From positions 36,518,001 to 36,582,000 of the forward strand of contig OX597839.1 in NCBI GenBank assembly GCA_951406725.2: a DNA stretch of 64,000 bases, in the 5' to 3' direction. Under the pieces are notes generated by a model that was not told where the DNA came from, made no database searches, and saw only the letters and a list, made by a program, of their open reading frames with translations. Below are positions 10,083 to 56,143 of this stretch, piece after piece; the first letter of the stretch is position 1, and each line of letters begins with the position of its first letter. The stretch comes from Octopus vulgaris (lineage: Eukaryota). The position numbers and the translations under genes were made by a program.

Positions 10083-10675
10083 GTGTGGTAAGTAGCTTGT
10101 TTACCAACCACATGGTTCCGGGTTCAGTCCCACTGCGTGGCACCTTGGGCAAGTGTCTTCTGCTATAGCCTTGGGCCGACCAATGCCTTGTGAGTGGATT
10201 TGGTAGACGGAAACTTAAAGAAGCCCGTCGTGTATATGTATATATATATATATATATATGCAGCACGGATTTTTGTCAGTGAACAGGTCACGGATTTTAG
10301 CGACGAAAATATTTTGACAAATTAAACTTAAATGTTGAAGTGAATCGAACGGCTTTTGTGTGTTTCTTAAATGGCTTATAAACACCTTCCACGCTGCAAT
10401 TGTGTGTGTATATATATATATATATATATATATATATATATATATATATATATATATATGCGTGTGTGTGTTTGTGTGTCTGTGTTTGTCCTCCTAGCAT
10501 AGCTTGACAACTGATGCTGGTATGTTTACGTCCCCGTTACTTAGCGGTTCGGCAAAAGAGACCGACAGAATAAGTACTGGGCTTACAAAAGAATAAGTCC
10601 CGGGGTTAAGTTGCTCGATTAAAGGCGGTGCTCCAGCATGGCCACAATCAAATGACTGAAAAAAAGTAAAAGAGT
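10083..10675 (+). mobile_element. SINE-B carrying a ~140-bp insertion (10260-10402) in its internal microsatellite
   Basis: Both halves colinear with other SINE-B copies. Confidence 0.9.
10272..10321 (+). ncRNA. Candidate minimal type I hammerhead ribozyme, G3-C8 core variant
   Basis: tttgtca GTGAACA g gtcac-ggatttta-gcgac GAAA atattt tgacaaa: 7-bp stem I, stem II 4/5 pairs, palindromic stem III region aaaatatttt. Confidence 0.55.
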
Positions 10676-11059
10676 ATATGACGAGGATAGAATAAGAGTA
10701 CTAATTGCATGAATATGGGAGAATTCTCTCCATAGAAAGACCCCAGTGTTTTATAACAGAGGAGTACTATTATGCTTCTTGTTGTTGTGAAAGGTTTCTA
10801 ATTACACACGTACCATGGCCAGCCTTTCATCTACCCCCGCCTCACTCCCCCTGCCCCATAATCTAGATTGTACAGTGTTTCATAATTGTAGTAGCAGCAG
10901 CAGCAGAAAAAGATGAAGTCTTCAGATCTTTGGAAACACTTGAACAATACACTCAAAGGAAACAGTATAATTGGCAATTAGAAGGACTTGTGGTAATGGT
11001 GATGGTGTCATTTACCTCCTTATTTGGAACAGAGAAAAAGAGAGAGAGACAGGCAGGCA

Positions 11060-11540
11060 GAGATAGATAGATAGATAGATAGATAGATAGATAGATAGAT
11101 AGATAGATAGATAGATATAGAGATAGATAGATAGATAGATAGATAGATAGATAGATAGATAGATAGATAGATAGATAGATAGATAGATAGATAGATAGAT
11201 AGATAGATAGATAGATAGATAGATAGATAGATAGATAGATAGATAGATAGATAGATAGATAGATAGATAGATAGATAGATAGATAGATAGATAGATAGAT
11301 ATAGAGATAGATAGATAGATAGATAGATAAATAGATAGATAGATAGACAGATATAGAGAAAGATAGACAGACAGACAGATAGATATAGAGATAGATAGAT
11401 AGATAGACAGACAGAGAGATATAGATAGATGGAGAGATATAAATATAGAAATATAGAGATAGAAATATAGATAGATAGATAGGAATATAGATAGATGGAT
11501 AGGAATATAGAGACAGATAGGCAGAGAGATAGAGATATAG
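11060..11540. repeat. (GATA)n tetranucleotide tract with degenerate flank
   Basis: Near-perfect (GATA)n for about 280 bp, then decays. Confidence 0.98.
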
Positions 11541-12039
11541 AGGAAAACCAATAGAAATAAAGAGAAAGTGAGTGTGGGTACAGATAGAAAGTTGGAGGGT
11601 TATAGAAAGGGTGGAAAACATGGAAATAGAGGAGAGAGAATCAAGTAAGAAACAGTCCTAGTTCTTGCTCCTCTTCCTTCTCCTCCTATAGTTTGTCTAG
11701 TCCCCCCCCCCCGTATTGAAGTCTCTTAATCTCTGCCATAACAGCAAATACTATGGAAGTCTTTTGTTGCAAAGGAACACATGGAGAGGTCAGAGGTTAC
11801 AGGTCAGAAGTAAACTCACTGAAACTGGAAGTTCATAACATTTATTGTTAGGGGTACAGACAGAGACTGTCACCATTTTGCAGCCACCAGCTCAGCTGCC
11901 TGTCTATTTAGCCTACACATAATTCAAAGGCATAAACAGACACCAGACAGGTACCAAGTCAGTTTGTTTAACCTATTGAAGAGAAATGCAAATATGCATA
12001 AAGGAATATATATATATACATTAGGTCATCCCATGAATA

Positions 12040-12427
12040 CTCTTTTACTTGTTTCAGTCATTTGACTGCGGCCATGCTGGAGCACCGCCTTTACTCGAGC
12101 AACTCGACCCCGGGACTTATTCTTTTGTAAGCTCAGTACTTATTCTATCGATGTCTTTTTGCCGAACCGCTAAGTGACGGGGACATAAACACACCAGCAT
12201 CGGTTGTCAAGCAATGCTAGGGAGACAAACACAGACACACACACACATATATATATACATATATACGACAGGCTTCTTTCAGTTTCCGTCTACCAAATCC
12301 ACTCACAAGGCTTTGGTCGGCCCAGGGCTATAGCAGAAGACACTTGCTCAAGATGCCACGCAGTGGGACTGAACCTGGAGCCATGTGGTTGGTTAGTAAG
12401 CTACTTACCACACAGCCATTCCTGTGC
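12040..12427 (-). mobile_element. SINE-B, full length
   Basis: Reverse complement of the SINE-B consensus. Confidence 0.9.
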
Positions 12428-12833
12428 AGTTTTTTTAACTTTATTTTTCAAAATTAAGATAAAGTTCTTTATTAATCTAAAATATACTCTCCTTCATTTT
12501 CTACAATTCTCTTCCATCTATGTGGTAGACTTGCAAAGCCCCTCTTCCAAAATTCACTTGTCCGTGATGAAAAATACTACTCCATTATTGTTCCGACCTT
12601 GTCTACAGAATTCATATTTTTTCTGTCCAAATGATTTTGAAGACTGCAGAATGAATGATAATCAGATGGGACAATGTCCGCCAAATATGGTGGGTGGAGC
12701 CTTGTTTCCCATTTAAACTGCTCCAGCCTTTGGAATGTCATCCTTACTCTATGTGGTAAAGTATTTAGAAATAAATTAAGAGGAGGAGGTTAATGCTCCT
12801 TTCCTCCACCTCCCAGTCTAATTGATGCTTAGT

Positions 12834-53424: not shown

Positions 53425-53915
53425 GCGCACACATATATACACACACACACACATACACTTGCATGTTTGTATGCATGCACACACATACATATATATATAT
53501 ATATATATATATATATAAATACACACACAAACACATATATACACACACACACACAAACACATATATATACACACACAAACACATACATATACATACACAC
53601 ACACACACAAACACATACATACACACACACACACAAACACATACATACACACACACACACAAACACATACATATACACACAAACACATACACATATATAT
53701 ACACACACACACACACATATATATACATGCACACACAAACACATACACATATATATAGCTGTATGTATTTGAATGTGTACATATTCACACACGTGTGTGT
53801 GTACATACACACATGTATGCATTTGCTTGTTTATACATAAAAGAAACATGTAAACGAATATACATACATTCATACGTGTGTGTGTGTGTGTGCCTGTGTA
53901 CGCACGCACACACAG
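53425..53915. repeat. (CA)/(TA) compound microsatellite
   Basis: Directly visible. Confidence 0.95.
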
Positions 53916-55223
53916 AGGCACATTTAAATTACTGAACTAGAATGTTTGTGTCTCACTGTATTCATATACCCACCCCCAGTGAAACTACCATTGGCTCTCT
54001 CTCTCTCCCTCTCTGTAGAGCAACAGACTTGACTAGTTTCACCTGCCTTTACCAGCTCATCAAGAGAAGTTCAAAAGATGTTGTTGTGTAACTTCACAAT
54101 CCAGTAGTCTTACAGCATGCAGGCAGTCAACAGACTGATGAGATGATGAGGTGCAGCCCAAAACTTCATCTCAGTTATGCCATGTCCCTTTCTAGTTGAG
54201 AGCCATTCCAACATGACCCACCAGTCTGTGATGAATCAGGAGGTGCCATATAACAGTCTGGGAATATTATACTCTTTACATCACCCAGTCCATTTTTGTA
54301 TACACCCACAGAGTCTGGTGGTGGCCATCCCAACTCTGTTTTGGGTTCAGCAAGGCTGTGATACCATTCCATTCAATAGTAGTTATGTCTGGTTTTCCAT
54401 GGTAGCAAGAGTTAGATGAATATATTTTTGAAGCATTTTTGTTTTTACAGTCAGGTACCTTTCCTGTTGCTAAACTTTACCTACTATTTAAGTAAAGAAT
54501 TTCTTATTTTCACATGTCTTTGAAGGAGCAAAACCAAAGGGAATGATGTCATCACTTGTAGCTCAGTGATTTTAGGTGAAGCAGAAGTGTAAACAAACAA
54601 ACACACACACACTGGGTTTCCATCTACCAAATCCAGTTACAGGTCTTTGGTTGCAGTAGGTTTGCAGTAAAAGACACTTGCTCAAGACACTTGTCGTGCT
54701 TGAGAAGAAGATCCATTAACCCAAGTAGAATCCTAGTTGTGGCAGAAACAGGTGTCAGACAAATGGCACTTGTGCCAGTGGCATGTAAAAGTACCCATTA
54801 GACTCTCAGAGTGGTTGGTGTTAGGAAGAGCATCCAACTGTAGAAACCATACCACATCAGACTGGAGTCTGGTGCAGCCTTCCAGCCTTGCCAGCCCTGG
54901 TCAAACCATCCAACCCATGCCAGCATGGTCAACAGATGTTAAATGATGATGATTGTTTGTTTGTTTTTGTTCCCCCCCCCTTTTTTTTTCTTTATTGGTT
55001 TGGCTGGAATGAGCTGAAGTCATCATATTTTTAGGATATTTTATGTTCTGAGCTGTTACTAATGTCTCCTGATATTTGGGTGGTTCTAATATGGCACAGC
55101 AAAGTTAAATCTCTCTCACCATATACATGTGTGTGTGTGTATAAAAAACACTGAATACAGTCAGTGAAGTGGTTGATGTTAAGAGAGACATCCAGCCATA
55201 GAAATCATATTAAAGTAGGCAGT

Positions 55224-55647
55224 GGCGCAGGAGTGGCTGTGTGGTAAGTAGCTTGCTTACCAACCACATGGTCCCCGGTTCAATCCCACTGTGTGGCACC
55301 TTGGGCAAGTGTCTTCTACTATAGCCTCAGGCCAACCAAAGCCTTGTGAGTGGATTTGGTAGACGGAAACTGGAAAAAGCCCATCGTATATATATATATA
55401 TGTGTGTGTGTGTGCGTGTGTGTGTGTGTGTGTGTGTTTGTATGTCTGTGTTTGTCCCCCCAGCATCGCTTGACAACCGATGCTGGTGTATTTACGTCCC
55501 CGTCACTTAGCGGTTCGGCAAAAGAGACCGATAGAATAAGTATTAGGCTTACAAAGAATGAGCTCTGGGGTCGATTTGCTCGACTATAAAGGCAGTGCCC
55601 CAGCATGGCCGCAGTCAAATGACTGACACAAGTAAAAGAGTAAAAGA
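55224..55647 (+). mobile_element. SINE-B, full length
   Basis: ggcgcaggagtggctgtgtggtaag...ggttcaatccc...(TA)(TG)n...gtaaaagagtaaaaga. Confidence 0.92.
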
Positions 55648-56105
55648 TTGGAGCTTGGTACAGTCCACTAGCTTGCCAACTCCTGTTGAACCAGGCAACC
55701 CATGGGGGACAAAAATGGATGTTGAATGGTGATGGTGATTAGGACTACATTAAACACACACGTCAATTTATTTGGAAACTAATCCACTGTTATATCTATC
55801 TATCTACACACACACACACATATATACATCTGCATGTATGTATGTATGTATGTATATATATATATATATATATATATATATATATATATAATAAAATATT
55901 AGGGATAAATTTTTAATACTTTTGATATATATTTAAAATAATATAAATTAATTTAAATTAATTTTATGTATTGGCTTAAGTTTTTCATTGTTTGATTTGC
56001 CTAATAGTGGTTTTATCTCTAATTTAATATAATATATATATATATATATATATATATATATATATATATATACTTTATTTAAAGCAGTAGAAAATTCAAC
56101 AAAAC

Positions 56106-56143
56106 CTGTTACTCTGAGTTTCACATTCCCGTTCGTCGGACAG
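56106..56143 (-). ncRNA. Candidate minimal hammerhead (U4C variant) in an ~85-bp insert within (TA)n
   Basis: Minus: ctgt CCGACGA acg-ggaa-tgt GAAA ctc-a-gag TA acag; all three stems pair, GUA triplet. Confidence 0.6.

What the first reader, a model, noticed from the sequence alone, without database searches (positions are those of the whole stretch)
10272..56143. About seven hammerhead folds from roughly six unrelated sequence families in 64 kb
Seen at 10272(+), 22504(-), 32560(+), 42429(+), 45372(-), 45576(-), 56106(-). They share a grammar (often an extra purine before stem II, minimal palindromic stem III) but not primary sequence, except the 32560/42429 pair. Inference: this genome may hold a very large, diverse and under-counted ribozyme repertoire. 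Those on the minus strand could lie in the pre-mRNA of the putative host gene.
Basis: inference. Interest (0 to 1): 0.7.

Follow-up and report, generated by a model that had tools for sequence, protein, structure and literature searches.

The report
Hammerhead ribozymes in octopus Penelope repeats
The seven motifs are copies of six repeat families in an octopus genome; four keep the full fold of a small, probably self-cutting RNA (a hammerhead) of a kind already known from Penelope-like jumping genes, three look decayed, and they likely serve the jumping genes rather than the host.

Summary
All seven motifs sit at the stated coordinates and exceed shuffled background (4 hits against 0.06-0.09). 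Only four form a complete fold: 42429 (canonical), 10272 (G3-C8 swapped core), 45576 (U6), 56106 (C4). 22504, 32560 and 45372 are decayed. They belong to six repeat families in five lineages; 45372 and 45576 are related. Four families trace to Penelope-like elements with RT and GIY-YIG frames upstream; tails, inverted partners and TA targeting fit. The repertoire is large (48,172 plus 6,284 exact matches, controls 45 and 0) and missed by Rfam, but the window is ordinary for this genome, and three families supply the first 100 listed matches. Copies almost never start at the cut site (2 of 350). The only site shown to lie in a host intron (10272) is antisense. The best feature is a family-wide natural G3-C8 core, whose homolog elsewhere keeps C3-G8. 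Cleavage is untested. This scan found the same things before on other DNA of this genome.

The parts
10272..10321 (+). Family D hammerhead, fold-complete, core G3-U4-G5-A6-N7-C8-A9 (swapped 3:8 pair), extra G, palindromic stem III, predicted cut after 10314; one stem II mismatch at a CpG
   Evidence: 828 candidates, identical copies on 3 other contigs; 6,284 exact 20-mers
10260..10402 (+). 5'-truncated end of a Penelope-like element (family D) between TA repeats, antisense in the first coding intron of a CCDC50-like gene
20954..21019 (-). First coding exon of a CCDC50-like host gene (PF15295); next exon 4.4 kb left of the window; a splice acceptor upstream of the ATG suggests a further non-coding exon of unknown position
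22504..22534 (-). Family F: intact core words and palindrome but no stem I and a broken stem II; old, low-copy, parent not found
   Evidence: 9 matches, the 8 others at 77-87%; consensus fold pairs the core away
32560..32599 (+). Decayed older copy of family A (G12 lost, stem II mismatches), with an inverted partial partner at 32387-32422
42266..42339 (-). Inverted tRNA-like head of family A (A- and B-box-like words, read by eye; not detected by ARAGORN or Rfam)
42429..42474 (+). Family A hammerhead, canonical core, extra A, 6-bp stem II, ACGU palindrome, predicted cut after 42469; part of the terminal repeat of a Poseidon-like element
44064..44161 (.).
   Evidence: no other copy in the fetched loci
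45285..45476 (-). Family E element end; motif 45373-45405 decayed (G5 to A, stem II and III mismatches); family core is CCGACGA
   Evidence: 4388 candidates
45487..45689 (-). Family B element end; motif 45576-45611 fold-complete with U at position 6 (family-wide), predicted cut after 45580; Neptune-like parent; related to E
56073..56153 (-). Family C element end; motif 56106-56143 fold-complete, C4 core, A-U at 10.1/11.1, 9-nt near-palindromic stem III, predicted cut after 56110; parent frame not found
   Evidence: 1023 candidates

Best explanation
The seven sites are copies of six repeat families, four of which are terminal repeats or truncated 3' ends of Penelope-like retrotransposons (the other two likely so or retrozyme relics), and the motifs are minimal type I hammerheads that would cut only as RNA dimers and probably with help from the element's protein. 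The element's RT-endonuclease likely nicks AT-rich DNA, starts copying about 40-140 nt downstream of the motif on uncleaved RNA and usually stops early, so short motif-bearing stubs pile up in tens of thousands and then decay. The ribozyme would act in the source elements (trimming tandem or read-through transcripts); most dispersed copies, including these, are probably passengers. Shown: motifs, families, counts, linked reading frames, insertion footprints, host gene position. Inferred: cleavage, dimerisation, the priming mechanism, the role.
For: RT/GIY-YIG frames lie upstream on the same strand: family B in 7 of 25 loci, one being the query source (RVT_1 E 9e-5 and GIY-YIG E 7e-4, both under the curated cut-off); family D in 3 of 25, one being the query source (47% identical to a protein with YVDD and YIGET motifs); family A in L009 (query source) and the unselected L209; family E in the unselected L227. 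Two discrete 3' ends about 33 (A), 70 (C) and 50 (D) nt apart; inverted partners in 19 of 47 (A), 25 of 38 (C), 21 of 61 (D) insertions; TA repeats at the 3' end in 60 of 78 (B), 35 of 38 (C), 37 of 61 (D), 36 of 46 (E) against 10% background. Starts within 3 nt of the cut: 0/66, 0/82, 2/67, 0/86, 0/49, in line with PMC11167929, where cleavage was protein-assisted and not needed for insertion in vitro. Same grammar published in PMC4209133. All four Watson-Crick 3:8 pairs occur across families. ACGU and AAUAUU cannot close a stable stem III within one strand.
Against: No parent frame was found for C or F. Pfam scores are below cut-off and most fragments had no Pfam match; clade names rest on recalled motifs. 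B and E show almost no inverted partners (2 of 78, 1 of 46) and a single 3' end; A shows no TA bias (3 of 47). Loci were mostly fetched by similarity over the motif, which biases against copies starting at the cut; in unselected DNA the count was still 0 of 71. Minimum-energy folds do not give the hammerhead for several sites. Core A residues are substituted less often than other A residues among copies (4/583 vs 53/1684, p 6e-4), which simple neutral decay does not predict. No cleavage or RNA-end data.
Confidence: 0.85

Rival explanations
1. Many dispersed copies are active and shape host transcripts: sense copies in introns or UTRs cleave pre-mRNA, as dimers with neighbours or with help from element proteins.
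For: At least 54,456 copies keep exact core words; core A residues are under-substituted; a 16-unit same-strand array of family D exists (L305).
Against: In the two mapped flanking genes family copies are 3 sense and 3 antisense, and fold-complete ones 1 sense and 3 antisense (too few to test). Core C, G and T decay like other positions. Published minimal hammerheads show no monomer activity, and no reads ended at the site in Anolis.
Confidence: 0.1
2. The variant cores (G3-C8 in D, U6 in B) are dead or have another job, such as a protein-binding fold; the families spread regardless of catalysis.
For: Catalytic mutants did not affect insertion in vitro. A natural change at A6 gave low activity. 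Copies do not begin at the cut.
Against: The swap in D is compensatory, fixed in 28 of 30 unseeded copies with stems kept while loop II varies; a homologous element keeps C3-G8 in the same layout (L311); C3G/G8C partly restores activity in a Penelope hammerhead. In B position 7 varies freely while the other core positions do not.
Confidence: 0.25
3. The folds are chance matches in repetitive, AT-rich DNA.
For: Relaxed descriptors give 0.65-2 hits per shuffled window; 46847 has no homolog outside the window in the fetched loci, 59799 one weak match, and 35498 lies in a 40-bp tandem repeat.
Against: About 1,000-fold excess over the reversed control genome-wide; cross-family covariation; position 3' of retroelement frames.
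Confidence: 0.02

Closest known systems
Minimal type I hammerheads in pseudo-LTRs of metazoan Penelope-like elements (Cervera and de la Pena 2014, PMC4209133; parts 1-2 of 4 read)
   Same: Extra nucleotide between 9 and 10.1, G10.1-C11.1, palindromic short stem III, several families per genome, mostly single dispersed copies, inverted pairs, 3:8 covariation (U3-A8).
   Different: Counts there are about 2,000-9,000 per genome; here at least 54,456. G3-C8 and U6 families are not described in the parts read. No octopus data seen.
Poseidon_Ac of Anolis (Frangieh et al. 2024, PMC11167929; parts 1-2 of 4 read)
   Same: Motif at the repeat/ORF junction, two RT start sites giving an optional tail, AT-rich targets, uncleaved RNA as template.
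   Different: C3G/G8C is an engineered rescue there and a natural, family-wide state here; family A starts with a tRNA-like head; tails here reach 50-70 nt.
Metazoan non-LTR retrozymes (Cervera and de la Pena 2020, PMC7229834; passages read)
   Same: Very high motif counts (126,247 in axolotl; over 6,000 in 16 families in a coral); a 353-359-bp array of this type lies in sample locus L170.
   Different: The window's sites are single truncated ends, not tandem non-coding repeats with canonical loops; 22504 might be an old relic.
Lunse, Weinberg and Breaker 2017, small hammerhead variants of Penelope-like elements (not held; title seen in a reference list; content recalled)
   Same: Recalled: many small-stem-III variants that cleave as dimers.
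   Different: Could not check whether octopus families or G3-C8 and U6 cores are in it.

Membership tests
Minimal type I hammerhead of PLEs | Core CUGANGA, GAAA and NUH site | tested here: inconclusive
   Exact at 42429 and (words only) 22504; family-wide variants at 10272 (G3-C8), 45576 (U6), 56106 (C4); broken at 32560 and 45372.
Minimal type I hammerhead of PLEs | Stems I and II close the junction | tested here: met
   4 of 7 window sites; majority state of families A-E; not met for 22504, 32560, 45372.
Minimal type I hammerhead of PLEs | Short palindromic stem III | tested here: met
   ACGU (A, B, E), AAUAUU (D), 9-nt near-palindrome (C), ACAUGU (F); broken in the 45372 copy.
Minimal type I hammerhead of PLEs | Extra nucleotide before stem II and G10.1-C11.1 pair | tested here: met
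   Met in A, B, D, E; family C has an A-U pair and needs no extra base.
Minimal type I hammerhead of PLEs | Self-cleavage as a dimer or with protein help | not testable with these tools
   No bench data; only contigs were offered for public runs.
Penelope-like elements (EN+) | RT followed by C-terminal GIY-YIG frame upstream of the motif | tested here: met
   A (2 loci), B (7 of 25), D (3 of 25), E (1 locus); not found for C and F.
Penelope-like elements (EN+) | Optional 3' tail, inverted 5'-truncated partner, microsatellite or AT-rich targets | tested here: met
   Tail and inversion in A, C, D; TA targeting in B, C, D, E; B and E lack tail and inversion, A lacks TA bias.
Penelope-like elements (EN+) | Complete repeat-ORF-repeat unit | tested here: inconclusive
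   No intact full-length source of families A-E was recovered; L312 shows only the 3' repeat.
Non-LTR retrozymes | Tandem 150-450-bp non-coding repeats with canonical hammerheads | tested here: not met
   Window copies are single; family D forms a 16-unit array elsewhere but has a minimal motif and a coding parent.
Non-LTR retrozymes | Circular RNA expression | not testable with these tools
   No raw reads offered.
Rfam hammerhead families | Covariance-model match | tested here: not met
   None among the best 150 of 197 window matches listed; none at gathering score in 6 loci; none at E up to 10 in two short stretches.

The most novel reading that the evidence does not exclude
Octopus Penelope-like elements run a natural mutagenesis of the hammerhead core at genome scale: whole families fix G3-C8 or U6 cores that are weak in laboratory tests, stay active with help from the element protein, and seed tens of thousands of conditional cut sites, some of which act on host transcripts when elements are expressed.
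Probability: 0.12. Interest if true: 0.7.

Novelty: new member of a known kind. Interest (0 to 1): 0.36.

Why it matters
The role of hammerheads in Penelope-like elements is an open question. This genome offers several families with different fixed cores (canonical, C4, U6, G3-C8) and recoverable parents, so activity and dispensability can be compared directly. The count (at least 54,456, about 19 per Mb) is far above the 235 Rfam hammerheads reported for the giant squid (PMC6962438, passage), which suggests that covariance models miss most cephalopod motifs. As a phenomenon it is already described for other animals.

Tried and rejected
Rfam found no hammerhead and no tRNA; ARAGORN found no tRNA. 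Public runs: no RNA holder listed on record, contigs only; the one contig laid on the first coding exon was unspliced and did not place the upstream exon. A first upstream walk for family D used wrong coordinates and returned only itself. Long-frame Neptune-like loci L101-L120 did not belong to the window's families. No parent for C or F. A Neptune-like frame near the E copy in L139 and frames near C in L308 were rejected as separate insertions; an endonuclease piece in L261 lies downstream of the D copy and was not counted. Extra descriptor hits 46847, 59799, 35498, 18577, 58039, 20995 were set aside as chance or parts of other repeats. My first reading of family A as an independent SINE was dropped after L009 and L209 showed it directly behind a coding frame. 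The neprilysin gene was rejected as host: it ends 66 kb beyond the window. PDB search gave nothing. The representative-protein search was not run. Literature searches for prior reports; none showed an octopus hammerhead census or a natural G3-C8 family; Lunse 2017 and all supplements were not seen and may contain either.
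Full report
Setting. The window is G000:C26:36518001-36582000 of a 2.8-Gb genome. A flanking exon is 95% identical to a neprilysin of Octopus sinensis and 89% to one of O. bimaculoides, so this is an octopus. About half of the window is masked as repeats by the loci fetched.

Observation. A type I descriptor with palindromic stem III gave 1, 4 and 5 hits at 0, up to 1 and up to 2 core changes; 200 dinucleotide shuffles gave means of 0.00-0.02, 0.06-0.09 and 0.65-0.95; none reached 4 or 5, and 2 of 200 reached the single exact hit. Three sites are decayed: 32560 lacks G12, 45372 has G5 to A and broken stems against its family, and 22504 has core words without stems. Pairwise tests give two related pairs among 21, 32560/42429 (z 13) and 45372/45576 (z 4.2), hence five lineages. 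An eighth motif, an inverted pair at 44064-44161, was missed.

Families. Genome searches returned 1688 (A, 42429), 1001 (B, 45576), 1023 (C, 56106), 4388 (E, 45372) and 828 (D, 10272) candidates, 40 scored each, and 9 for F (22504). The odd cores are family traits: among unseeded copies U6 is in 27 of 28 B copies, G3 and C8 each in 28 of 30 D copies, C4 in 15 of 23 E and 4 of 8 C copies, the rest mostly the CpG product. All 11 core positions match the family in 11/22 (A), 19/28 (B), 4/8 (C), 22/30 (D) and 10/23 (E).

Parents. Walking upstream reached coding frames. B: RT, a CX4CxxC linker and a GIY-YIG domain, same strand, in 7 of 25 loci including the query source; Pfam RVT_1 E 9e-5 and GIY-YIG E 7e-4, both under cut-off. 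Such a linker marks the Neptune and Nematis clades (PMC8557442, passages); the name Neptune-like is recalled. D: thumb and endonuclease frames in 3 of 25 loci including the query source, 47% identical to an unnamed protein with YVDD and YIGET motifs; the Atlas gave PF26215 in 42% of a cluster at 0.96 with weak recognition. E: a sister of the B frame upstream in the unselected L227. A: a Poseidon-like frame (name recalled) runs directly into part of the tRNA-like head, an AAT repeat and the motif in L209 (unselected) and, with a further insertion in the AAT repeat, in L009; 8 of 9 head matches in 864 kb were listed; 7 of the 9 lie within 500 bp of a body. I looked for this link after reading earlier finding e1-8669850. 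No parent was found for C or F.

Footprints. A, C and D have two 3' ends about 33, 70 and 50 nt apart and frequent inverted partners (19/47, 25/38, 21/61); B and E have one end and few partners (2/78, 1/46). TA repeats follow the 3' end in 60/78 (B), 35/38 (C), 37/61 (D), 36/46 (E) and 3/47 (A) against 10% background. Only 2 of 350 aligned pieces start within 3 nt of the cut, 0 of 71 in unselected DNA. Tail, inversion and microsatellite bias are PLE hallmarks; internal priming on uncleaved RNA, protein-assisted cleavage and no need of cleavage for insertion were shown for the Anolis element (PMC11167929).

Scale. An exact pattern for motifs with the ACGU palindrome gave 48,172 matches against 45 for the reversed control; it does not test stems. 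By my reading of the first 100 rows listed (start of C1), 22 are A, 54 B-type and 24 E-type. A 20-mer of D gave 6,284 against 0. In 60 evenly placed 10-kb stretches, 24 fold-complete hits (7 in one retrozyme-like array) compare with about 0.85 in 20 shuffles and 0 in reversed sequence. This extrapolates to about 79,000 (46,000-127,000) without the array or 112,000 with it; the sample over-weights small contigs and gave 15 pattern hits where 11.7 were expected, so these are somewhat high. The window is within a factor of about two of average (P of 4 or more 0.11-0.26). Rfam detects none in the stretches tested. About 14 motif types, by my grouping of 28 signatures, occur in 1.75 Mb of partly selected loci, with C3-G8, G3-C8, U3-A8 and A3-U8 all present.

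The swapped core. A metagenome contig encoding a homolog of the D parent (47% over 90 residues) has a motif of the same layout with C3-G8 just behind its frame. This is one comparison. C3G/G8C partly rescues activity in engineered ribozymes; U3-A8 was the natural covariation reported in PMC3088659 (section 8) and PMC4209133. Searches showed no natural G3-C8 family, but Lunse 2017 was not available. The scan noted this swap before in this genome and others.

Selection on copies. Core positions differ less from the family majority than other non-CpG positions (p 0.001-0.14 by family). With gaps and subfamily columns masked, only core A residues keep the deficit (4/619 vs 119/2922; C, G, T not significant), also after matching the 5' neighbour. 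This may reflect many constrained source elements or an alignment effect; it does not show selection on dispersed copies, and it does not fit plain neutral decay either.

Host gene. A CCDC50-like gene runs on the minus strand from an ATG at 21019 to 60 kb left of the window; neprilysin ends at +129,840. Site 10272 is antisense in the first coding intron. The minus-strand sites are 1.5-35 kb upstream of the ATG; an acceptor at about 21081-21089 leaves a 5' UTR intron possible. Within the two genes family copies are 3 sense and 3 antisense.

Literature seen. PMC4209133 parts 1-2; PMC11167929 parts 1-2; PMC3088659 passages and section 8; passages of PMC8557442, PMC6765202, PMC7761336, PMC7229834, PMC6962438, PMC3884650, PMC8495972 and PMC13282606 (an Octopus vulgaris repeat annotation whose main text has no 'ribozyme' or 'hammerhead' and lists 31 recently active Penelope-like families). 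No supplements were read.

Verdict. A real, large and under-annotated set of motifs, of a kind described in 2014 and explained by Penelope-like retrotransposition. New members of a known kind; the fixed G3-C8 and U6 cores are the part worth a bench test. Interest 0.36.

Noticed in passing
window 63020-63055 (-): Repeat in which GAAA precedes CUGAAGA; resembles the re-ordered hammerhead that earlier findings describe. 2 matches in 600 kb. Structure not tested.
   Followed up: partly
window 41931-42145 and 42458-42672: 215-nt inverted repeat (94%) around the family A copy that takes in about 150 nt of flank beyond the element's 3' end, as if flank was copied with the inverted partner.
   Followed up: no
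L305:1920-4500 (G000:C28): 16 same-strand family D units of about 167-177 nt separated by TA repeats, next to a C2H2 zinc-finger frame.
   Followed up: partly
L170:2307-4513 (G000:C1): Seven identical canonical hammerheads in a 353-359-bp array with an inverted part; retrozyme-like; missed by Rfam at gathering score.
   Followed up: partly
L004, L006, L008, L009, L023: R4/Dong-like non-LTR elements (name recalled) inserted in the AAT repeat of family A in 5 of 30 loci.
   Followed up: no
L143, L089, L093, L066, L246: Further motif families with A3-U8 and U3-A8 cores.
   Followed up: no
L120 upstream of its frame: Neptune-like element whose repeat seems to carry a hammerhead with a very long stem II insert, read by eye.
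   Followed up: no
families A-E, unseeded copies: Core A residues are substituted 4- to 6-fold less than other A residues; core C, G, T are not.
   Followed up: partly
L231:1499-1660 (+): Exon with a DLDETL motif, probably a CTDNEP1-like phosphatase (name recalled), 88 kb left of the window.
   Followed up: no
window 25810-25964: Near-perfect 155-nt hairpin (MIR904 model match below gathering score), probably a MITE.
   Followed up: no
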